Below the pieces are notes generated by a model. The model was not told the origin of the DNA and did no database searches. It saw only the letters and a list, made by a program, of their open reading frames with translations. This document shows, piece after piece, positions 1-41,440 of a stretch of 64,000 nt of DNA (within the stretch, counting starts at the first letter, position 1; each line of letters opens with the position of its first letter). A program made the translations under genes and the position numbers. Source of the stretch: Thermodesulfobacteriota bacterium (lineage in GTDB: Bacteria; Desulfobacterota; Binatia; Bin18); the NCBI GenBank assembly GCA_964291405.2, contig OZ219926.1, positions 2,688,001-2,752,000 of the forward strand. Reading direction: 5' to 3'.

Positions 1-2
1 CG

Positions 3-257
3 ACCACGCTGTTAGACTACCATATCCCATCCTCTCTCGATCTCCCGCATATCGAAACCATCGAACACAACGTTCCCTCCCCCCACACACCGTTAGGCTC
101 CAAGGGAAAAGGCGAGGGCACACCCGGTATGGTGCCGGCTGCGGTGGCGAATGCGATCGAGGACGCCTTGCAACCCCTGGGTGTCAAAATCACGGACCTG
201 CCCCTCACCCCAGAGCGAATTTGGAAGCTGATTCAGGCGGTGCAATCAAAAGAATAA
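3..257 (+). CDS. Xanthine dehydrogenase/CoxL-family molybdopterin-binding subunit, C-terminal fragment (runs off window start)
   Basis: Manual translation of frame 3: TTLLDYHIPSSLDLPHIE...PLGSKGKGEG...AAVANAIEDAL...DLPLTPERIW, a typical molybdo-hydroxylase large-subunit C-terminus; stop TAA 255-257. Confidence 0.85.
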   Translation, partial: TTLLDYHIPSSLDLPHIETIEHNVPSPHTPLGSKGKGEGTPGMVPAAVANAIEDALQPLGVKITDLPLTPERIWKLIQAVQSKE

Positions 258-6313: not shown

Positions 6314-6365
6314 CAGAAGTATCGAGAATGACCTCTGATTGGATTGAAGATTCTCGATACTTCTG
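6314..6365. repeat. Perfect 16-bp inverted repeat with 20-nt loop upstream of the gamma-glutamyltransferase RBS
   Basis: CAGAAGTATCGAGAAT-N20-ATTCTCGATACTTCTG. Confidence 0.85.
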
Positions 6366-6377
6366 AAGGAGTGATCT

Positions 6378-8129
6378 ATGGCCTATCGCCCGACTCTGAT
6401 GAGTACGCGAGGGATGATTTCGACCGAACACTATCTATCCGCCGAAGCCGGCATGCACATTCTCCGTTCTGGGGGTAACGCGTTTGATGCGGCCGTTGCC
6501 GCGGCGTTGGCCGAAGGCGTACTCAACCCCCATATGCATACGTTTGGGGGCGAACTGTCCGCGCTCGCCTATAGTGCGACGGACAAGAAAGTCTTCTCGA
6601 TTAACGGCAATACCGTTGCGCCCAAAGCGGCAACGCTTGAATGGTTTCAGCAGCAGGGTATGACCCTCATTCCAGGCAGCGGCGCCCTGGCTGCCGGGCC
6701 GTGTGCGGCCCCGGACGCTTTCATTTCTGCGCTACAGCGCTTTGGGACGTGCAGCTTTGCCCAAGTGGTCGCACCCGCGCTGGAACTGGCTGAGAACGGT
6801 TTTCCCATGCACTGGGCCCTCCGTGGCCCGGCGCCGGCCTATCTGAATATGGACTTTTCGATTGCCGGGAACGCCGAGCATTTCAGGAAACACTGGCCGT
6901 CTTCAGCCAAGGTCTATCTGCCGGACGGACACCTGCCCGATGTCGGTCAAATCATGACGAACCCAGATTTGGCCCGGACATTTCGATGTCTGATGGCGGC
7001 AGAAGAACGGGCCGGTGGTGACCGCCTCGACGGTCTCGCAGCCGCCCGGGCCGAGTTTTATGAAGGGTCTGTCGCTCAGACCATAGCGGTCCATGCGAAA
7101 GCACAGGGTGGGCTTCTGAGCGCGGAAGACCTGGCCGACTTTCATATTCAGATCGAAGAGCCGACAACCCTCAACTACCGTGGTTATGATGTCTACAAAT
7201 GTGGCCCCTGGAGCCAAGGCCCGGTGTTTCTGCAGCAACTGGCCTTGCTTGAAGGGTTTGATCTCAGGGCGATGGGCCTGAATAGTGCGGATTATATTCA
7301 TACGGTCACAGAAGCGGCCAAGCTTGCCTTTGCCGACCGTGAACAATACTACGGAGATCCGAATTTTACCGATGTTCCACTAGAGAGGCTCCTCTCCAAA
7401 GACTATGCGTCCGGCCGGCGTGAGCTGATCGACAACGGACAGGCGTCGCTTGACCAGCGACCAGGGAATCCGCGGACAGGCGCCGCGTTACTCGAAGGGG
7501 AAGATATCTTTGCGGCCCGGAATTGGGGTCCAGGCACCGTCTATGTGGCGGTGATCGATAAAGAGCGGAATATGGCTTCTTTTACCCCGAGCGGGGCCTG
7601 GATTCCGTCCTCTCCGGTAATAGACGGCCTCGGCTTCCCCTTGGGGACCCGAGTGCAGACCTTCTTCCTGGATGCAAAGCATCCGAACGCCTTGGTACCG
7701 GGGAAACGTCCGCGTACTACCCTGACGCCGACCCTGGTCATGCGAGACGGAAACCCCTGTATGGTTTTTGGTACGCCGGGCGGAGACCAGCAGGATCAGT
7801 GGACGCTCCAGTTCTTTCTGGCTGTGGCTGATCTTGAAATGGAAGTACAGGATGCCATAGAAGCTCCCCGATTTTCGACCTCCCACTTCCCGAGCAGTTT
7901 CTATCCGCATAATTGTGTTCCCGGTCTGCTCCGAGTTGAAGAGCGAATTCCTGAAGAGGTCCAACGTGAACTCAAAGCTCGCGGGCATAGGCTCCAGGTC
8001 AACCCGGCATGGAGCGAGGGAGACGTGCTGGGCATCCGCATTGATGCCAAGTCTGGCACGCTGTACGGCGGAGCGGATATACGTGGGGAACAGAGCAAAC
8101 GTATGCCGTCACATATCATTGGCTGGTAA
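6378..8129 (+). CDS. ggt: Gamma-glutamyltransferase family (Ntn hydrolase)
   Basis: GGNAFDAAVA, KLAFADRE.YYGDP, PGKRPRTTLTP, FGTPGGDQQDQW. Confidence 0.92.
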   Translation: MAYRPTLMSTRGMISTEHYLSAEAGMHILRSGGNAFDAAVAAALAEGVLNPHMHTFGGELSALAYSATDKKVFSINGNTVAPKAATLEWFQQQGMTLIPGSGALAAGPCAAPDAFISALQRFGTCSFAQVVAPALELAENGFPMHWALRGPAPAYLNMDFSIAGNAEHFRKHWPSSAKVYLPDGHLPDVGQIMTNPDLARTFRCLMAAEERAGGDRLDGLAAARAEFYEGSVAQTIAVHAKAQGGLLSAEDLADFHIQIEEPTTLNYRGYDVYKCGPWSQGPVFLQQLALLEGFDLRAMGLNSADYIHTVTEAAKLAFADREQYYGDPNFTDVPLERLLSKDYASGRRELIDNGQASLDQRPGNPRTGAALLEGEDIFAARNWGPGTVYVAVIDKERNMASFTPSGAWIPSSPVIDGLGFPLGTRVQTFFLDAKHPNALVPGKRPRTTLTPTLVMRDGNPCMVFGTPGGDQQDQWTLQFFLAVADLEMEVQDAIEAPRFSTSHFPSSFYPHNCVPGLLRVEERIPEEVQRELKARGHRLQVNPAWSEGDVLGIRIDAKSGTLYGGADIRGEQSKRMPSHIIGW

Positions 8130-15970: not shown

Positions 15971-16024
15971 AAAGAGGAAACGTGCCCTCCAATCATTCAC
16001 AAAAGCTGGACATGTTTCCTCTTT
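15971..16024 (+). repeat. 54-bp palindromic element copy A (intergenic, abuts upstream stop codon)
   Basis: AAAGAGGAAACGTGCCC-TCCAATCATTCACAAAAGCT-GGACATGTTTCCTCTTT. Confidence 0.95.
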
Positions 16025-20631: not shown

Positions 20632-21204
20632 GTGTTGATTCGCGCCTTCATCGCGGCTAATCTAGCTCTGTCAGTAAGCGAAGAAATGGCAAAAGTCCAG
20701 TCTGCTCTCCAAAAGGCCAAAGGCGATATCCGTTGGGTCAAACCGCAGGGATTTCATCTGACGTTTCGGTTTCTTGGAAATATCGAGCCGATTCGCGTTG
20801 CGCCCATCCTGACCGCATTGCGAGCAGCCGTGAGGCTTCACCCTCAGTTCCAAGTCCGAACGCAGGGACTCGGGGCGTTTCCTTCATTCACCCGACCACG
20901 GGTGTTATGGACACGTCTGAACGGTGATGGACTACAGGAACTGTATACAAAAATTGAGTCGGCTCTCAGCTCCTGTGGCTTTCCGCCCGAGGGCCGCGCG
21001 TTTCGCCCGCATATCACTCTGGGCCGGGTCCGCTCTCCACGTGGTTGGAACCCAGTCCTGGAAGGAATCAAGGCGTATCTACAGTACGACTTTGGGGAGA
21101 GCCCGATTGACAAAGTGACCCTGTATCAGAGTGACCTGGGGCCAGGCGGAGCAGTCTATACGCCACTTGGGGTTGCCCATCTGAATCCCACTGAAGGTGT
21201 ATGA
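20632..21204 (+). CDS. thpR: RNA 2',3'-cyclic phosphodiesterase (2H family)
   Basis: HLTFRFLG and FRPHITLGR motifs; lies between cinA and recA. Confidence 0.9.
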
Positions 21205-21236
21205 GCCCACCGCCCACAACAGTAAGGAGTGTATAT

Positions 21237-22286
21237 ATGGCAGAGGACAGAGATCGTGAACGAGCGTTAGACTTAGCGGTCAGTCAGATCGAAAAGCAGT
21301 TTGGCAAGGGCTCGATCATGAAGCTCGGCGAGGGCGCTCTGGTGCACAACATCGCCTCGATTTCGACCGGCTCGCTGGGTTTGGACCTCGCCCTCGGTAT
21401 CGGTGGCCTCCCACGCGGCCGCGTGGTCGAGATCTACGGACCTGAATCATCGGGGAAAACCACGCTCGCTCTGCACGTCGTTGCCCAGGCCCAAAAAGCC
21501 GGAGGCTCCTGTTCCTATATCGATGCGGAACACGCCCTGGACGTGAGCTATGCCGGCAAACTTGGGGTGAAAGTTGACGAGGTGTTGATCTCGCAGCCCG
21601 ACAACGGTGAACAGGCACTCGAAATCACGGACACCTTAGTCAGAAGCGGTGCGCTGGATGTGATTGTGGTCGATTCTGTGGCTGCCCTGGTGCCCCGCTC
21701 CGAGCTCGAAGGCGATATGGGTGAGCCGCAGATGGGCCTGCAGGCCAGACTCATGTCGCAAGCGCTGCGGAAACTCGTCAGTACGATATCACGTTCGCGT
21801 ACCCTGGTCATCTTCATCAATCAAATCCGGATGAAGATCGGTGTCATGTTCGGCAATCCCGAGACCACAACCGGCGGTAACGCCCTCAAATTTTATTCCT
21901 CCGTTCGCATGGATATCCGCCGTACGGGCGCAATCAAGCAGGGCGCTCAAGTGGTTGGGAATCACACTCGAGTCAAAGTGGTCAAAAATAAGGTCGCTCC
22001 ACCGTTCAAGGAAGCGGAATTTGATATTTTGTACGGGAGCGGGATATCCAAAGAGGGTGAGCTGATCGACATTGGCGTGGACAACAATATCGTTGAAAAG
22101 GCCGGCGCCTGGTACTCTTTTGCTGGAGAGCGGATCGGCCAAGGCCGAGAGAACGCCAGGGAATATCTGCGAGACAACCCCGAAGTGTCCGCCACGATAG
22201 AGCATCAGGTCCGGGAGAAGTTTGGTCTTAGCGCTCCTCAAGCCGAAGCTACAGCGAGAGAAGAAGAGGTGACTGAGAATGCCTAG
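21237..22286 (+). CDS. recA: Recombinase RecA
   Basis: [35 protein letters not shown]. Confidence 0.99.
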
Positions 22287-22304: not shown

Positions 22305-22778
22305 ATGAGTCATCCGCGTTCTTCTTCTGAGCAGACCCCGTTGCACTATGCCTATAGTCTCCTGGCACGGGGCGACTACAGCGCGGCTCGTTTACACGAG
22401 AAATTACGGCTCAAGGGGTTCACGACGCAGGCGGTGACCGCGACGGTTGATACACTGAGGGAGCGCGGCCATCTGAACGACACCCGTTTGGCGCGCGGTC
22501 TGGCCGAGCGGTTTCAGAAGCAGGGCTTTGGTCGGTGTGGGGTGCGGGCCAAGCTCCAGCAACGGGGACTCACGGACGACGTGATTGCAACCGCGCTGAG
22601 CGAGTGGGAAGAGGACACGGATATCAGGATCGCCGAGCAGCTTATCCAGCGTCGTTTCCCTTCTACCGCACTCGAAGAGCCCAAGACGCGCGCCCGCGCA
22701 TATCGATTCCTGTTACGACGAGGATACTCTGCCAGTGTTGCGGCAAGCGTGCTAGGAAGAGAAGCGTATAACGACTAG
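22305..22778 (+). CDS. recX: Regulatory protein RecX
   Basis: Follows recA; LARGDYS...L..KL, LNDTR, KL.QRG, FLLRRGY. Confidence 0.85.
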   Translation: MSHPRSSSEQTPLHYAYSLLARGDYSAARLHEKLRLKGFTTQAVTATVDTLRERGHLNDTRLARGLAERFQKQGFGRCGVRAKLQQRGLTDDVIATALSEWEEDTDIRIAEQLIQRRFPSTALEEPKTRARAYRFLLRRGYSASVAASVLGREAYND

Positions 22779-22799
22779 CGAATGGAAAGAGTAACCGCC

Positions 22800-25520
22800 A
22801 TGACAGGGAACGAGATACGCGACAGCTTCCTGCAATTCTTTGCCGACCGGGGTCATCAGATTGTCCCGAGTGCGTCTTTGATTCCAGCCAATGATCCGAC
22901 GCTGCTGTTCACCAATGCCGGGATGGTGCCGTTCAAGAATATTTTTCTCGGGGTCGAACGGCCGACCCACCGGCGTGTGGTCGATTCCCAAAAATGTTTG
23001 CGCGTCTCCGGGAAGCATAACGATCTGGAAGAAGTGGGTCGCGATACCTACCACCACACCTTCTTTGAGATGCTGGGGAACTGGTCGTTTGGCGATTACT
23101 ACAAAAAGGAAGCTATCCGCTGGGCTTGGGAATTGCTGACCGAGGTCTGGAAACTTCCCAAGCCGAAACTCTGGGCAACGGTGTATACGACAGACGACGA
23201 GGCGGACGAGTGGTGGCGGACCCAAACCGATATCAATCCGCAACAGATTTTGCGTTTTGCTGAAAAGGACAATTTCTGGGAAATGGGCGAGACCGGCCCC
23301 TGCGGACCGTGCTCGGAAATCCATATTGACCGCGGTCCGCAGGCTTGCGAGTTAGCTAATACACCGGGCCATAGCTGCGCGGTCAACGGTGGCTGTCCAC
23401 GCTATATTGAGTTATGGAATCTGGTGTTCATACAGTACAACCGCAATGCGGATCGATCCCTGGACGATCTGCCCGAGACGCATGTTGATACGGGTATGGG
23501 CTTGGAGCGCATTGTCTCCGTTCTCCAGGACGTGCCGGGCAATTACGACTCCGACCTGCTGCGCGACATCATTACCTTTACCGAGGAGTTAGGCGAAAAG
23601 CAGAAACGTGTCCTCCAATCATCCGCAAAAGCTGGACACGTTTCTGCTTTCAAGCGCTACGGCGAGACGAGTGAACAGGATGTGTCGTTTCGGGTGATTG
23701 CCGACCATGCACGTACGGCGGCCTTTGCCATTGCCGATGGCGTGGTCCCGACCAACGAGGGGCGAGGCTATGTGTTACGGCGGATTATGCGCCGCGCCTT
23801 GCGCCACGGGCGACTCCTTGGCTTTGAGGGGCCATTTTTCTCCCAGGTCGCCGGAAGCGTGACACAACTCCTGGGCTCGGCCTACTCCGAGCTGGTTGAG
23901 CGACGAGACTATCTGACCGAGGTCATACACAACGAGGAGACCCGTTTCTCGGAAACCCTGGACAAGGGCCTGGCCCTGCTCGAGCAAGAAATCCACGATT
24001 TGCGTCAGCGCAACGCTACAACCCTGTCCGGCGAAACCGCCTTTCGGTTGTATGATACCTACGGCTTCCCGCTGGATATGACCGAGGATTTTCTGTCGTC
24101 CGAAGGTTTCAGCGTTGACCACGATGAATTTCAGGCAGCCCTGGAAGAACAGCGTGCCCGTGCGCGTGGGGGGCAAAAGTTTGCTTCCGTCTCCGTTTCT
24201 GACACCATTGGCCCGCCCACTGACACTATAAGTGCTGAAACTGTAAGGACCGATTTTGTTGGTGATCGCCAGACTGAACACGAATCCGAGGTACGCATGC
24301 TGCTGGTGGACGGACAGCCCCGAACAGACGTGGTACGCGAAGGGGAAGAAGTCGATCTAATCGTTGCCGAGACGCCTTTTTATGGCGAGTCCGGGGGACA
24401 GGTCGGGGATACGGGGACGATACGAACGAGCCGTGGCGATCTCATCGAGGTGTTGGATACGCTTAAACCGCAGCCTTCGCTTATTGTGCATAAGGGCCGG
24501 GTGGTGCAGGGCGCGATGCAGACCGGGGATGCTGTGCATCTCAGTATTGACACTCCACGGCGCGAAGCCATTCGTTTGAACCATTCCGCAACACATATCA
24601 TGCATTCCGCGCTACGCGAGATTTTAGGCTCCCACGTGCGGCAGGCCGGTTCCCTGGTCACCCCGGATCGACTCCGTTTCGACTTTACACATACCAGTCC
24701 GGTCAAGGACGATGTCCTGGACGAAATCGAAAACCTGGTGAACCACCATATTCGGGAAAATGCCGCGGTGACGAGTGAGGAGATGTCCTTTACCGACGCG
24801 ATACAAAAAGGGGCCTTGGCCTTCTTTGGCGAGAAATACGGCGAGATCGTTCGGGTGTTACGGATGGGAGATTTCTCAACCGAGCTGTGCGGCGGAACCC
24901 ACGTGAGTCGGACCGGGGACGTGGGGTTGTTCAAATTCAGAGCGGAGACGGGCGTGGCGTCCGGTATCCGGCGGGTTGAGGCGGTCACAGGCGAGGGTGC
25001 TCTCAACTGGGTGCGTCAACGCGAGCACGTGCTCAAGGACATGGGCAGTATCCTGAAAGGCTCTGAGGAGGATGCGCTTGAGCGCTTGGAAAAATTGCTG
25101 AGTCGGCAACACGAGCTTGAAAAACAACTTGACCAGCTTCAGAGCCAAATCGCCGGCTCACAAAGCGACGATCTTGCTTCCCACATCCGTCAGACCAATG
25201 GGGTCAATGTGATCGCCAGTCGGGTCGAGGGCGTGGATCAGAAAGCCCTCCGGGAGATGGCGGATACGCTACGCGACAAACACCATCCCGCGGTCGTCGT
25301 TCTCGGAGCAACGAATGGGGCGAAAGTGTCGCTTCTCGCCGCGGTGAGTAAGGATTTGGTGCCGCAATATCACGCCGGAAAGATTATCAAAGAGATCGCC
25401 CCGCTGGTTGGCGGCGGTGGAGGCGGGCGGCCCGATTTCGCCCAGGCCGGAGGAAAAGATCCCAAACGCCTGGATGAAGCCCTCCAAAAGGTGTATGAGC
25501 TGATTGAAAAAGGCGCATAA
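22800..25520 (+). CDS. alaS: Alanine--tRNA ligase (contains in-frame 54-bp element)
   Basis: DPTLLFTNAGM, HHTFFEMLGNWSFGDY, NHSATH, ELCGGTH, GGGGGGRPDFAQAGG. Confidence 0.99.
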   Translation: MTGNEIRDSFLQFFADRGHQIVPSASLIPANDPTLLFTNAGMVPFKNIFLGVERPTHRRVVDSQKCLRVSGKHNDLEEVGRDTYHHTFFEMLGNWSFGDYYKKEAIRWAWELLTEVWKLPKPKLWATVYTTDDEADEWWRTQTDINPQQILRFAEKDNFWEMGETGPCGPCSEIHIDRGPQACELANTPGHSCAVNGGCPRYIELWNLVFIQYNRNADRSLDDLPETHVDTGMGLERIVSVLQDVPGNYDSDLLRDIITFTEELGEKQKRVLQSSAKAGHVSAFKRYGETSEQDVSFRVIADHARTAAFAIADGVVPTNEGRGYVLRRIMRRALRHGRLLGFEGPFFSQVAGSVTQLLGSAYSELVERRDYLTEVIHNEETRFSETLDKGLALLEQEIHDLRQRNATTLSGETAFRLYDTYGFPLDMTEDFLSSEGFSVDHDEFQAALEEQRARARGGQKFASVSVSDTIGPPTDTISAETVRTDFVGDRQTEHESEVRMLLVDGQPRTDVVREGEEVDLIVAETPFYGESGGQVGDTGTIRTSRGDLIEVLDTLKPQPSLIVHKGRVVQGAMQTGDAVHLSIDTPRREAIRLNHSATHIMHSALREILGSHVRQAGSLVTPDRLRFDFTHTSPVKDDVLDEIENLVNHHIRENAAVTSEEMSFTDAIQKGALAFFGEKYGEIVRVLRMGDFSTELCGGTHVSRTGDVGLFKFRAETGVASGIRRVEAVTGEGALNWVRQREHVLKDMGSILKGSEEDALERLEKLLSRQHELEKQLDQLQSQIAGSQSDDLASHIRQTNGVNVIASRVEGVDQKALREMADTLRDKHHPAVVVLGATNGAKVSLLAAVSKDLVPQYHAGKIIKEIAPLVGGGGGGRPDFAQAGGKDPKRLDEALQKVYELIEKGA
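23597..23650 (+). repeat. 54-bp palindromic element copy B, in-frame in alaS
   Basis: AAAGCAGAAACGTGTCC-TCCAATCATCCGCAAAAGCT-GGACACGTTTCTGCTTT; perfect 17-bp arms; reads KQKRVLQSSAKAGHVSAF. Confidence 0.97.
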
Positions 25521-32288: not shown

Positions 32289-32342
32289 AAAGAGGAAACG
32301 TGTCCACCAATCAGGCACAGAGGCTGGATACGTTTCCTCTTT
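32289..32342 (+). repeat. 54-bp palindromic element copy D (between prfB and PAC2 gene)
   Basis: AAAGAGGAAACGTGTCC-ACCAATCAGGCACAGAGGCT-GGATACGTTTCCTCTTT. Confidence 0.95.
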
Positions 32343-32388: not shown

Positions 32389-33306
32389 ATGAACGCATTG
32401 ACAATTGAACGAATTCCGGAACTGAACGACCCCGTCCTGATTGTCGCCTTTGCCGGCTGGAACGATGCCGGCAGTGCGGCGACGCATGCCACGCAATTTC
32501 TTATCAAACGACTCCAGGCCCAGCGTTTCGCGACGATCGACCCTGAAGAATTTTATAATTTCAGTGAGGTCCGGCCCCACGTGCGCCTGCGAGATGGCCT
32601 CTACCGCGAGATTCGCTGGCCGGCCAATGAATTCTTTGCGACTAGCGCAGAGCAGCTCAAGCGCAGCATGGTCCTGGGTCAGGGCATTGAACCGCATCTC
32701 CGCTGGAAGGCGTATTCAGCGGCCTGTCTGGATGTTGCCAAGCAGTGTGGGGTGCGCCTCGTGATTACCCTGGGTGCGCTCTTGGCCGATGTGGCCTACT
32801 CCAGGCCGGTACGCGTGGTCGGATTTAGCAGCGACCCCGATATTGCGACCCAACTCCAACTCACCCCGTCCCGCTACGAGGGGCCAACCGGCATCGTCGG
32901 GGTGTTGAACGATGCCTGCCGACAGGCTGGATTGACGTCCATCAGTTTCTGGGCCAACGTGCCGCACTATATTTCCGCTTCTCCAAACCCAAAGGCCGCC
33001 CTGGCTCTCGTCAGCCGTCTTGAGTCCTTTCTCCACTTCGCCCTGGATACCACCGAGTTGGTGACGGGCGCGGCGGAGTTTGACGCACAGGTTGCAAAGG
33101 CGATTGCCGAGAATCCCAACTTGGCCGCCTATGTCAAACGCCTGGAAGAACAGGAGCAGGAAGAGGGGCTGGAAACGGAGACCGCTGCGCAGGACAAAGC
33201 CGGCAACGGACACGGCAACGGCAACGGGCATGCCAACGGCAAGGATATGGCTGAAGAACTCCAGCGTTTCTTGCAGCAGCGTAAGGATCGTAAAGATGAC
33301 GAGTGA
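32389..33306 (+). CDS. PAC2 (proteasome assembly chaperone-like) family protein
   Basis: AFAGWNDAG.AAT, IDPEEFYNF...RP, EPHLRW, LGALLADV..SRP, YEGPTGIVGVL, WANVPHY. Confidence 0.85.
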   Translation: MNALTIERIPELNDPVLIVAFAGWNDAGSAATHATQFLIKRLQAQRFATIDPEEFYNFSEVRPHVRLRDGLYREIRWPANEFFATSAEQLKRSMVLGQGIEPHLRWKAYSAACLDVAKQCGVRLVITLGALLADVAYSRPVRVVGFSSDPDIATQLQLTPSRYEGPTGIVGVLNDACRQAGLTSISFWANVPHYISASPNPKAALALVSRLESFLHFALDTTELVTGAAEFDAQVAKAIAENPNLAAYVKRLEEQEQEEGLETETAAQDKAGNGHGNGNGHANGKDMAEELQRFLQQRKDRKDDE

Positions 33307-34810
33307 GGCCCGGCCCGACCCGGATAAGTCCGTGTATATGGTGAATCTGGGTTGCCCTAAAAATCTCGTGGATGGCGAGGTCATGCTCGGCCTGCTGGCG
33401 GATGCAGGCTATACGCTGAGCCTCGACCCGGAACAGGCCGGGGTCCTGATGGTCAATACGTGCAGCTTTATCGACGAGGCCAAGGAAGAGTCGATTGAGA
33501 CGATCTTGGACTTGGCGACCTATAAGACGACGAAGACAAAGAGGAAACGCGCCCTCCAATCAGACAAAAAAGCCGGACACGTTTCCTCTTTCGAGAAACA
33601 GCTCATTGTGACCGGCTGTTTAGCCCAGCGCTACGGTCAGGAGCTGCGCGAACTTCTCCCTGAAGTTGACGTTTTTGTGGGAACGGGAGAGTTTCTTCGG
33701 ATCACCGAGATATTGGAACAAAGGCGGCGCGCGCTTGAAAAGAGGGAACGTGTCCTCCAATCATCCAAAAAAGCTGGACACGTTCCCTCTTTTGGTCCTA
33801 CCATGTATCTGGGGGCCTCTCACGTCCTGCCGGATCATACCGTTCCGCGTATCCCGACTACCCATTTTTACTCCGCCTATCTCAAGGTCGCCGAAGGTTG
33901 CAACCACAAATGCGCCTTTTGTATTATTCCGAAAATTCGCGGCTTACAGGAAAGTCGGCCGATTGCTTCTCTCGTGGCCGAAGCTACCGGACTGGTCGCA
34001 CAAGGGGTGAGAGAAATTAATCTCATTGCGCAAGACCTGACCGCTTACGGGCGAGAGCGCCGTGATGGGACGACCCTGCTGGCCCTGCTCAAATCCCTCG
34101 TGCGCGTTAAGGGTCTGGACTGGATTCGGCTGCTGTACTGCTATCCGAATTATCTCGACGAAGCCCTGTTAGGTTTCATTGCCGCAGAAGAAAAAGTATG
34201 CCCGTATATTGATATGCCGCTCCAGCATATCAGCGACCGGATGTTGAGGCGGATGAAGCGGGAGAAAAGCGGGGACGGCATTCGCCGCGTGTTGGACCGG
34301 ATTCGGGCCGCTATTCCCAATGTGATTATACGCTCGTCTTTTATTGTTGGCTTTCCCGGTGAGCGAGAGGACGATTTTCAGCAGCTGTGCGATTTCGTAA
34401 CCGAGGCGGAGCTCGATCACGTAGGGGTGTTTCGCTATTCCCAGGAGGAAGGGACAGCTGCTGGTACAATGGCCGACCAGATCAGCGAAGAGATCAAAGA
34501 AGACCGCTGGCACAAATTGATGGCCTGCCAGGCCGAAGTCGTGCGTAAAAAAAATAGCGCGCTGGTGGGTGAGGAACGATCGATACTCGTCTGTGGTCAG
34601 GACGATCACGGCCGCTGGTGGGGGCGGACGCAGGGCCAGGCTCCGGATATCGATGGCATCGTCTTCCTGGAACAGTGTCCGGCTGACAGCGGCGACATGG
34701 TCCGTGCCCGGATTACCGGGGCGTCCGGTTATGACCTGCAAGCGCGCTGTCTTCCCGAGCAGCCGTTTCAAACATCCACAGCTCTTGACTTGGCAGCCGC
34801 TTCTCCCTAA
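33296..34810 (+). CDS. rimO: Ribosomal protein S12 methylthiotransferase (contains two in-frame 54-bp elements)
   Basis: LGCPKNLVD, NTCSFI, GCLAQRY, CNHKCAFC radical SAM motif, QAPDIDG TRAM region. Confidence 0.96.
   Translation: MTSEARPDPDKSVYMVNLGCPKNLVDGEVMLGLLADAGYTLSLDPEQAGVLMVNTCSFIDEAKEESIETILDLATYKTTKTKRKRALQSDKKAGHVSSFEKQLIVTGCLAQRYGQELRELLPEVDVFVGTGEFLRITEILEQRRRALEKRERVLQSSKKAGHVPSFGPTMYLGASHVLPDHTVPRIPTTHFYSAYLKVAEGCNHKCAFCIIPKIRGLQESRPIASLVAEATGLVAQGVREINLIAQDLTAYGRERRDGTTLLALLKSLVRVKGLDWIRLLYCYPNYLDEALLGFIAAEEKVCPYIDMPLQHISDRMLRRMKREKSGDGIRRVLDRIRAAIPNVIIRSSFIVGFPGEREDDFQQLCDFVTEAELDHVGVFRYSQEEGTAAGTMADQISEEIKEDRWHKLMACQAEVVRKKNSALVGEERSILVCGQDDHGRWWGRTQGQAPDIDGIVFLEQCPADSGDMVRARITGASGYDLQARCLPEQPFQTSTALDLAAASP
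33538..33591 (+). repeat. 54-bp palindromic element copy E, in-frame in rimO
   Basis: AAAGAGGAAACGCGCCC-TCCAATCAGACAAAAAAGCC-GGACACGTTTCCTCTTT; reads KRKRALQSDKKAGHVSSF. Confidence 0.97.
33739..33792 (+). repeat. 54-bp palindromic element copy F, in-frame in rimO
   Basis: AAAGAGGGAACGTGTCC-TCCAATCATCCAAAAAAGCT-GGACACGTTCCCTCTTT; perfect arms; reads KRERVLQSSKKAGHVPSF. Confidence 0.97.
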
Positions 34811-34843: not shown

Positions 34844-34897
34844 AAAGAGTCAAGATGTCCTCCACGCATCCAAATAAAGCTGGACACGTTTACCCTT
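34844..34897 (+). repeat. 54-bp palindromic element copy G (degenerate; upstream of dksA RBS)
   Basis: AAAGAGTCAAGATGTCC-TCCACGCATCCAAATAAAGCT-GGACACGTTACCCTTT. Confidence 0.88.
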
Positions 34898-34910
34898 TGG
34901 AGAAGGCGTC

Positions 34911-41384: not shown

Positions 41385-41440
41385 AAAGAGTAAACGTGTC
41401 CAGCTTTTTTTTGTCTGGCTGGAGGATACGTTTACTCTTT
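41385..41440 (-). repeat. Palindromic element copy H (56 bp, minus strand, intergenic)
   Basis: Minus strand AAAGAGTAAACGTATCC-TCCAGCCAGACAAAAAAAAGCT-GGACACGTTTACTCTTT. Confidence 0.95.

What the first reader, a model, noticed from the sequence alone, without database searches (positions are those of the whole stretch)
23597..23650. Clean 18-codon insertion in alanyl-tRNA synthetase
Seen: deleting exactly 23597-23650 gives ...EELGDKRYG..., a compact sequence like the usual AlaRS segment preceding the FRVIADH motif. The arms are a perfect 17/17, which suggests a recent or well-maintained copy in an essential gene. Inference: the peptide sits in a tolerant surface loop, or is removed at the RNA level.
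Basis: partly seen in the sequence, partly recalled or inferred. Interest (0 to 1): 0.7.

Follow-up and report, generated by a model that had tools for sequence, protein, structure and literature searches.

The report
Mobile hairpin repeat translated inside alaS
A 54-base hairpin-forming mobile repeat has landed in frame inside the essential alanyl-tRNA synthetase gene of an uncultured Binatia bacterium and adds 18 amino acids to a loop; the same repeat family has done this to about ten other housekeeping genes, much as the palindromic elements of Rickettsia do.

Summary
Window 23597-23650 is a 54-nt perfect 17/17 hairpin with a 20-nt loop, in frame in the genome's only alaS. Deleting it restores ...EELGDKRYG....

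- **Family.** It is one copy of a repeat family with 156 loci in this 4.95-Mb genome. The family was found only in this genus among the 41 genomes searched.
- **Insert.** Aquifex AlaRS (1RIQ) and 21 of 27 congeneric alaS genes lack exactly these 18 codons. Six species carry it at the same site with the same private arm variant, so it is one old insertion, not a recent one.
- **No target-site duplication** at 3 of 3 filled/empty sites.
- **Other genes.** Copies also sit in frame in mnmG, mnmE, rimO (twice) and yfiH/ylmD, and probably in mfd and uvrA-, addB-, FAD-monooxygenase- and APH-like genes.
- **Translation.** Later deletions inside the rimO copies are all multiples of three, and an RNA-library contig from a relative reads into the insert. 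Both point to translation, not RNA removal.
- **Open.** The mobilising enzyme is unknown. The alaS hairpin is unusually well kept (compensatory changes in G013); this is unexplained.

It is a new member of the Rickettsia-RPE kind. This scan met the same family earlier in other Binatia genomes (e1-2559581, e1-4937699, e1-4937704).

The parts
22782..25520 (+). alaS (alanyl-tRNA synthetase), 912 aa, the only full-length alaS in the genome
   Evidence: ORF; Pfam tRNA-synt_2c, tRNA_SAD and DHHA1; PDB matches at E down to 8.8e-140; one full-length match in G000
23597..23650 (+). 54-nt palindromic repeat element inserted in frame. It supplies 18 codons (AlaRS residues about 273-290, KQKRVLQSSAKAGHVSAF) and splits an ancestral Asp codon GA|C
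23597..23613 (+). left arm, AAAGCAGAAACGTGTCC
   Evidence: pair I3; the GCAG variant occurs in 1 of 156 copies in this genome
23614..23633 (+). 20-nt loop of the '...CAAAAGCT' subfamily
   Evidence: 15 of 144 anchored copies; 5 of them within 26 kb, all inside this window
23634..23650 (+). right arm, GGACACGTTTCTGCTTT, 17 of 17 complementary to the left arm
33080..34810 (+). rimO-like methylthiotransferase gene carrying two in-frame copies of the family. The true start is probably later: homology to RimO begins near residue 94 of the open frame
33538..33591 (+). family copy in frame in rimO (site a, ...KRKRALQSDKKAGHVSSF...)
33739..33792 (+). family copy in frame in rimO (site b, ...KRERVLQSSKKAGHVPSF...), perfect arms
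   Evidence: (I1)
15971..16024 (+). family copy upstream of the domain start of a zinc alcohol-dehydrogenase gene; probably intergenic
   Evidence: (L047)
32289..32342 (+). family copy; coding status not determined
34844..34898 (+). family copy (55 nt) just after the rimO stop; intergenic
41385..41440 (-). family copy (56 nt) between two minus-strand ORFs; intergenic
   Evidence: (I4)

Best explanation
The 54 nt are one copy of a small non-autonomous mobile repeat: 17-nt inverted ends, a 20-nt loop, and no target-site duplication. The family has spread through one genus of uncultured Binatia. In an ancestor of several species a copy landed inside an Asp codon of alaS, at the end of a helix between the catalytic core and the FRVIADH helix. 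Its length is 3n and that frame has no stop, so the gene stayed open. The element is transcribed and translated as 18 extra hydrophilic residues in a permissive helix-end/loop, and the enzyme still works. The insert is selfish or neutral baggage, not an adaptation of AlaRS. Shown: family membership, exact boundaries, absence in most relatives, one origin, the same behaviour in other housekeeping genes, and frame-preserving decay. Inferred: translation, surface exposure, retained enzyme activity, and mobility by an unidentified enzyme.
For: - **Family.** nhmmer finds 156 non-overlapping loci in the 4.95-Mb genome. Conservation begins and ends sharply at AAAGAG...CTCTTT. The perfect-core pattern occurs in 17 of 41 genomes searched, all in the window's genus, and in 0 of 16 other genera. 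In the public scan most rows are Candidatus Binatia MAGs.
- **Exact insertion.** There is an 18-residue gap against 1RIQ. Of 30 relatives' alaS loci, 26 lack exactly these codons. Across the genus, 6 of 27 genomes with alaS carry it.
- **One origin.** All 6 copies sit at the same nucleotide and share the GCAG/CTGC arm variant. That variant is unique among this genome's 156 copies.
- **No target-site duplication.** The empty sites GGCGA|CAAG (alaS), AAGAC|CGAG and CTTGA|TGGT (rimO) are filled by exactly 54 nt. The flanks of 144 copies show direct repeats no more often than chance.
- **Same behaviour elsewhere.** Exact 18-residue gaps against solved homologues occur in MnmG and YlmD/YfiH. RimO has two inserts and MnmE one. 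Pfam domains lie on both sides of copies in Mfd and in UvrA-, AddB-, FAD_binding_3- and APH-type proteins.
- **Translated.** alaS is single-copy. All six orthologous inserts are 54 nt and stop-free. In rimO the later deletions are -6, -12, -21 and -48 nt, all multiples of three. An RNA-library contig at 94% identity covers 23449-23646 without a gap.
- **Not needed for function.** Most species have AlaRS and RimO without the inserts.
Against: - No protein-level or enzymatic evidence exists.
- The RNA contig comes from a relative, has low depth (2.3), stops 4 nt before the end of the insert, and DNA carry-over in that library cannot be excluded.
- The structure model is poor: mean pLDDT 68, with residues 29-105 below 50. 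Surface exposure is therefore argued from the alignment, not shown.
- No transposase was found: no element with these ends around a gene, only five solo arms and all next to ordinary metabolic genes. The single RAYT-like gene is flanked by other repeats, and there is no DUF559.
- The alaS hairpin is kept better than neutral baggage predicts: about -26 kcal/mol in all six species. G013 keeps 15 of 17 pairs despite 11 arm substitutions, which happens in 0.2-0.3% of simulations.
- The patchy species distribution does not fit the alaS gene tree. It needs several losses or recombination, which were not resolved.
Confidence: 0.85

Rival explanations
1. The insert is translated, but its hairpin (as RNA or as DNA) has been taken over for a function in alaS. 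Examples would be a translational pause between the two domains, an mRNA processing or stability site, or a protein binding site. On this reading the arms are kept paired by selection.
For: All six orthologous alaS copies fold at -26.1 to -26.9 kcal/mol. G013's copy has three double compensatory changes and two G-U changes; random substitution keeps 15 or more of 17 pairs in 0.2-0.3% of trials. rimO copies of the same family decay to 7-12 Watson-Crick pairs in some species. Among G000, G002, G041 and G023, substitutions fall only in the loop.
Against: 21 of 27 congeners do without the insert. The test was chosen after seeing the data and rests on one diverged copy. Templated mutation within quasi-palindromes (recalled from the literature, not tested) gives paired changes without selection. 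Paired changes at the same arm position also occur in rimO copies that otherwise decay: G006 site a and G022 site b. No Rfam family matches.
Confidence: 0.1
2. The 54 nt are removed from the transcript, or skipped by the ribosome, so the protein has the ordinary short loop.
For: Only the strong hairpin itself. No such processing is known for this kind of element.
Against: Length and frame are conserved and no stop occurs in 6 of 6 orthologues, including one that differs at 17 of 54 nt. All later deletions in the sister rimO inserts are in frame. An RNA-library contig continues into the insert. There are no intron or intein features: 54 nt, and no Rfam hit.
Confidence: 0.02
3. The six insert-bearing species gained the element independently at a hot spot in alaS, not through one ancestral insertion followed by losses or recombination.
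For: Insert-bearing alleles are scattered in the alaS codon tree; for example G023 (insert) is sister to G007 (no insert) with 99% bootstrap. Flanks show a weak symmetric GC preference.
Against: All six share the same nucleotide position, orientation, frame, loop subfamily and the GCAG/CTGC arm variant, which is found in 1 of 156 copies of this genome. G004's empty site reads GAA-AAG, which is what a deletion between the two AAG repeats flanking the insert would leave. rimO site a shows AAATTT footprints of loss in three species.
Confidence: 0.05

Closest known systems
Rickettsia palindromic elements (RPE; Ogata et al. 2000 and 2002, seen only as summarised in passages of the review PMC10969869)
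   Same: A dispersed palindromic repeat family that inserts in frame into unrelated, conserved protein genes. It adds a family-specific peptide while the genes stay open and apparently functional. It is restricted to one genus.
   Different: 54 nt (18 aa) against about 100-150 bp; a different phylum (Binatia, free-living-size 5-Mb genomes); no sequence relationship was tested. Here only about 11-14 of 156 copies are in genes, whereas the review reports nearly half for RPE.
[quoted passage not shown]
   Same: Small size, terminal inverted repeats of 17 nt, many dispersed copies, no coding capacity, local clustering of subfamilies.
   Different: No target-site duplication (3 of 3 empty-site comparisons; flanks of 144 copies). 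No parent insertion sequence with the same ends was found in this genome.
REP / REPIN elements mobilised by RAYT (IS200/IS605-like Y1 transposases)
   Same: Hairpin-forming repeats, insertion without duplication, mostly between genes.
   Different: The one RAYT-like gene in the genome is flanked by a different GC-rich repeat, not by this family. There is no conserved tetranucleotide next to insertions. Copies inside genes are frequent.

Membership tests
Alanyl-tRNA synthetase (class IIc) | Full-length catalytic/tRNA-recognition domain, editing domain and C-Ala domain | tested here: met
   Pfam tRNA-synt_2c positions 1-551 of 552 (E 7e-202), tRNA_SAD and DHHA1; PDB AlaRS matches
Alanyl-tRNA synthetase (class IIc) | Sole alaS of the genome, so it must be functional | tested here: met
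   In G000 one full-length match plus one weak editing-domain-only match (28.8 bits); genome 97.5% complete
RPE-like in-frame palindromic elements | Member of a dispersed palindromic repeat family | tested here: met
   156 loci; 11 arm matches in the window against 0.14 expected
RPE-like in-frame palindromic elements | In-frame insertions in several unrelated conserved genes, absent from homologues | tested here: met
   Exact gaps against solved homologues for AlaRS, MnmG and YlmD; inserts in RimO (two) and MnmE; presence/absence among congeners
RPE-like in-frame palindromic elements | Sequence or size relationship to RPE-1..10 of Rickettsia | tested here: not met
   Size is 54 nt against about 150 bp as given in PMC10969869. 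Sequence similarity was not tested because no RPE sequence was at hand. So it works like an RPE but is not a member of those families.
RPE-like in-frame palindromic elements | Insert lies on the protein surface and is compatible with the fold | tested here: inconclusive
   AlphaFold2: helix 259-280, then coil; residues 282-285 have pLDDT below 50. The model is weak overall.
MITE | Terminal inverted repeats | tested here: met
   17-nt arms
MITE | Target-site duplication | tested here: not met
MITE | Parent IS with the same ends | tested here: inconclusive
   None in G000: 5 solo arms, and the two longest open frames beside each carry no transposase family (7 ordinary enzymes, 3 without a Pfam match). 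Relatives were not searched.
REP/REPIN-RAYT | RAYT gene flanked by the repeat | tested here: not met
   The single Y1_Tnp match is flanked by other repeats
IS200/IS605-derived palindromic elements | Conserved target tetra- or pentanucleotide next to one end | tested here: not met
   The flank logo of 144 copies shows no conserved adjacent bases, only a weak GC preference at -13/-12 and +12/+13
Any Rfam RNA family | Match at the gathering score | tested here: not met
   0 matches in the 64-kb window

The most novel reading that the evidence does not exclude
The element is mobilised by a mechanism that both inserts and excises seamlessly, without duplication, probably acting on the folded hairpin. 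In-frame copies would then be reversible 18-residue modules in essential proteins. In alaS the hairpin itself would be under selection, as the compensatory changes suggest, for example as an intragenic pause or processing signal between the two AlaRS domains.
Probability: 0.1. Interest if true: 0.75.

Novelty: new member of a known kind. Interest (0 to 1): 0.5.

Why it matters
It shows that translated selfish DNA inside essential genes, of the kind known from Rickettsia, also occurs in a free-living-size genome of an uncultured phylum, with a much smaller element.

The genus supplies many natural with/without pairs: alaS in 6 of 27 species, rimO site a in 7 of 24 and site b in 14 of 24. It also supplies decay intermediates. 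That makes it a ready-made data set on which loops of essential enzymes tolerate 18 extra residues, and on how such inserts are lost.

The clean, duplication-free insertion with no recognisable transposase points to a mobilisation route still to be found.

For annotation, these inserts explain odd 18-residue extras in Binatia housekeeping proteins.

Tried and rejected
- **Rfam** at gathering score on the whole window: 0 hits.
- **Parent transposase.** There is one RAYT-like Y1_Tnp gene, but it is flanked by different repeats. DUF559 has 0 matches. The five solo arms lie beside ordinary genes: the two longest open frames beside each gave aminotransferase, dienelactone hydrolase, luciferase-like monooxygenase, acyl-CoA dehydrogenase, epoxide hydrolase, an M41 peptidase and an alpha/beta hydrolase, and three had no Pfam match.
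- **Target-site duplication** of 1-8 nt: not above chance in 144 copies.
- **Candidate in-gene copies that failed.** Of 27 copies spanned by an open frame of at least 60 codons on both sides, 22 (in 21 frames) were examined and 5 with shorter frames were not (C3 51063, 2441523, 2921742, 3669622, 4264387). The copies near the murC-, ADH- and His_Phos_1-type genes lie upstream of the first domain and are probably intergenic. Five frames had no Pfam match (L041, L043, L046, L049, L050). The histidine-kinase copy is 55 nt and probably upstream of the true start. The HEAT and PMT_2 copies are undecided.
- **Mfd.** The alignment to solved structures does not cover the insert region, so that insert rests on flanking Pfam domains only.
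- **AlaRS protein tree**: too poorly resolved. The codon tree lost its outgroup rows (L016, L022 and L023 were dropped by my motif filter), so it is effectively unrooted and omits G019, G012 and G016.
- **Structure model** from a 27-row alignment: only mean pLDDT 68. No fold search was run on it.
- **RNA run X1.** It has no cover over 23658-23939, so the right junction of the insert is not seen in RNA.
- **Literature.** 'Binatia' + 'palindromic' gave 2 papers, neither relevant. 'repetitive palindromic' / 'in-frame insertion' / 'aminoacyl-tRNA synthetase' gave nothing relevant. I therefore found no published description, within that library only.
- **Script bugs.** Two scripts stopped on bugs and were corrected (partial output, 46).
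Full report
**1. The observation**

Window 23597-23650 reads AAAGCAGAAACGTGTCC, a 20-nt loop, then GGACACGTTTCTGCTTT. The repeat finder reports 17-nt arms, 100% complementary, 20 nt apart (I3).

The 54 nt lie in frame in ORF 22782..25520 (+), 912 aa. This ORF is alanyl-tRNA synthetase:
- Pfam tRNA-synt_2c matches positions 1-551 of 552, with tRNA_SAD and DHHA1.
- The best solved relatives are Aquifex and E. coli AlaRS.

recA (21201..22286) and recX (22305..22778) lie upstream (the two names are my reading of the printed translations, no family search was run on them).

The arm matches 11 places in the window at up to 3 mismatches, against 0.14 expected. As RNA the region folds at -33.4 kcal/mol, z = -4.25.

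The insert is also present, with one differing letter, in contigs of two public runs from different studies (X2, X3). X2 may be the source sample.

**2. A repeat family**

Seven copies lie in the window, at 15971, 23597, 32289, 33538, 33739, 34844 and 41385. A profile built from pattern hits finds 156 non-overlapping loci in the 4.95-Mb, 57.8% G+C genome.

- Conservation starts and stops sharply at AAAGAG[T/G]AAACGTGTCC ... GGACACGTTT[A/C]CTCTTT.
- The modal length is 54 nt (83 of 144 anchored copies), and 95 of 144 are multiples of three.
- The flanks show only a weak symmetric GC preference at -13/-12 and +12/+13.
- Direct repeats in the flanks are no more frequent than chance.
- The perfect-core pattern occurs in 17 of 41 genomes searched. 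All 17 are in the window's genus (G000 plus 16 of 24 others), with 0 of 16 in other genera.
- In a capped scan of public genomes, most rows are MAGs titled Candidatus Binatia. The scattered single hits in other phyla have only the 9-nt cores in common.
- Rfam has no matching family.

**3. The alaS copy is a true insertion, old and of single origin**

The alignment with Aquifex AlaRS (1RIQ) has an exact 18-residue gap between S253 and G254.

Of 30 alaS loci from relatives, 26 lack exactly these 18 codons. They include all 6 from other genera, which lack the family.

Across the 28 genomes of the genus, 6 of the 27 with alaS carry the insert: G000, G002, G023, G041, G043 and G013. G009 is 65% complete and has no alaS match.

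The empty site is GGCGA|CAAGCGC. The element split an Asp codon (GAC) into GAA...TTC, with no duplication.

All six copies share position, frame, loop type and the arm variant GCAG/CTGC. That variant is unique among this genome's 156 copies, so one insertion event is the economical reading.

The carriers are not one clade in the alaS codon tree. For example G023 pairs with insert-less G007 at 99% bootstrap. That tree is effectively unrooted and three rows were dropped.

G004's empty site reads GAA-AAG. That is what a deletion between the two AAG triplets flanking the insert would leave. Losses, allele exchange between species, or both are needed; I could not separate them.

**4. The same family sits in frame in other housekeeping genes**

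Of 156 copies, 27 are spanned by an open frame of at least 60 codons on each side. I examined 22 of these copies, lying in 21 frames.

| Gene | Evidence |
|---|---|
| mnmG | exact 18-residue gap against E. coli MnmG |
| yfiH/ylmD | exact 18-residue gap just before the HAGWRG motif |
| rimO-like gene (in this window) | two inserts |
| mnmE | one insert |
| Mfd; UvrA-like, AddB-like, FAD_binding_3 and APH proteins | Pfam domains on both sides of the copy |

The Mfd insert lies in a linker that did not align to solved structures.

Three reading frames of the element are used:
- the 'K-x-KRVLQSSKKAGHVSSF' frame of alaS, rimO, mfd and addB;
- the 'RGNVSSNRHDMLDTFPL' frame of mnmG, mnmE and yfiH;
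- a third frame in uvrA.

Copies near the murC-, ADH- and His_Phos_1-type genes lie upstream of the first domain and are probably intergenic. Several other frames gave no family. So about 11 copies are in genes with good support, and the count is a lower bound for copies near gene ends.

**5. Translated, not removed**

- alaS is the only full-length copy in a 97.5%-complete genome.
- All six orthologous inserts are 54 nt and stop-free, although G013's differs at 17 of 54 nt.
- The rimO inserts vary among 24 species. Site a is present in 7 (one with a 6-nt deletion), and three species have an AAATTT footprint. Site b is full-length in 12, partly deleted in 2 (-21 and -12 nt) and absent in 10. 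Every one of these changes is a multiple of three.
- A contig from a marine metatranscriptome library, 94% identical, runs from 23449 to 23646 without a gap. That is 50 nt into the insert. It has low depth, comes from a relative, does not reach the right junction, and DNA carry-over cannot be excluded.
- Contigs that skip exactly the 54 nt in runs X2 and X4 are 91-93% identical, so they come from other species.

**6. Where it sits in the protein**

The AlphaFold2 model (27-row alignment) has helix 259-280, coil 281-296 and helix 297-318. The first insert residues extend the helix; residues 282-285 have pLDDT below 50, and block 281-290 averages 55.

The model is weak overall (mean pLDDT 68, residues 29-105 below 50). 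Surface exposure is likely but not shown.

**7. Mobilisation**

- There is no target-site duplication at 3 of 3 filled/empty sites.
- No gene bracketed by the arms exists in this genome.
- The five solo arms lie next to ordinary metabolic genes.
- The single RAYT-like gene is surrounded by other repeats.
- There is no DUF559.
- The alaS-type loop subfamily has 15 of 144 copies, and 5 of them lie within 26 kb in this window. This fits local spread.
- The enzyme is unknown.

**8. An unexplained point**

All six alaS copies keep a hairpin of about -26 kcal/mol. G013's copy has three double compensatory changes and two G-U changes, giving 13 Watson-Crick and 2 G-U pairs of 17.

With 5 + 6 random arm substitutions, 15 or more pairs survive in 0.2-0.3% of simulations. 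rimO copies decay to 7-12 Watson-Crick pairs in some species.

This may be selection on the hairpin or templated mutation in quasi-palindromes (recalled, not tested). The test was chosen after seeing the data, and most congeners lack the insert altogether.

**9. Comparison with what is known**

The behaviour is that of Rickettsia palindromic elements, as summarised in passages of the review PMC10969869. I did not read Ogata et al. 2000 or 2002 themselves. The element differs in size, host phylum and the lack of any tested sequence relation.

It has the inverted ends of a MITE but not the duplication. It shares with REP/REPIN the hairpin and the clean insertion, but not the RAYT association.

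My two literature searches found no description for Binatia, within that library only. Supplementary files were not consulted.

Earlier notes of this scan describe the same 54-nt family in other Binatia genomes (e1-2559581, e1-4937699, e1-4937704). They agree with this reading but are not independent evidence.

**10. Verdict**

The 'tolerant loop' reading is supported, and the 'RNA removal' and 'recent' readings are not. This is a new member of a known kind (RPE-like translated selfish repeats). Two open questions remain: the mobilising mechanism and the unusually well-kept alaS hairpin.

Noticed in passing
L051 (G000 C3:980603-983833), about 1016-1800: A RAYT-like Y1_Tnp gene split into two ORFs. 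It is flanked on both sides by a different GC-rich REP-like hairpin family (...GCGGGCTGCCAGCCCGC...) and by a perfect 28-nt inverted pair (1286-1313 / 2099-2126). A second, separate repeat system in the same genome.
   Followed up: partly
window 6314-6365: An unrelated perfect 16/16 inverted repeat with a 20-nt spacer, just upstream of ORF 6378..8129 (I5).
   Followed up: no
G000 C3 2.25-2.5 Mb; window 15971-41440: Copies are unevenly spread: 36 of 156 lie in one 250-kb bin. 5 of the 15 copies with the alaS-type loop lie within 26 kb in this window.
   Followed up: partly
L177, L179, L182 (rimO site a in G001, G022, G010); L005 (alaS in G004): Apparent loss footprints. AAATTT (the outer 3 nt of each arm) is left at rimO site a in three species, and a GAA codon stands in place of GAC/GAT at the empty alaS site of G004.
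   Followed up: partly
G000 C3:2489466-2492853 (L037, L038): The adjacent genes mnmG and mnmE each carry one in-frame copy. With alaS and rimO, four of the in-gene copies are in tRNA- or ribosome-modifying or tRNA-charging enzymes. This may simply reflect local clustering.
   Followed up: no
G000 C3:2372165-2372219 (L036): A 55-nt copy inside the open frame ahead of a PAS histidine-kinase gene. It would shift the frame if translated, so the true start probably lies downstream.
   Followed up: no
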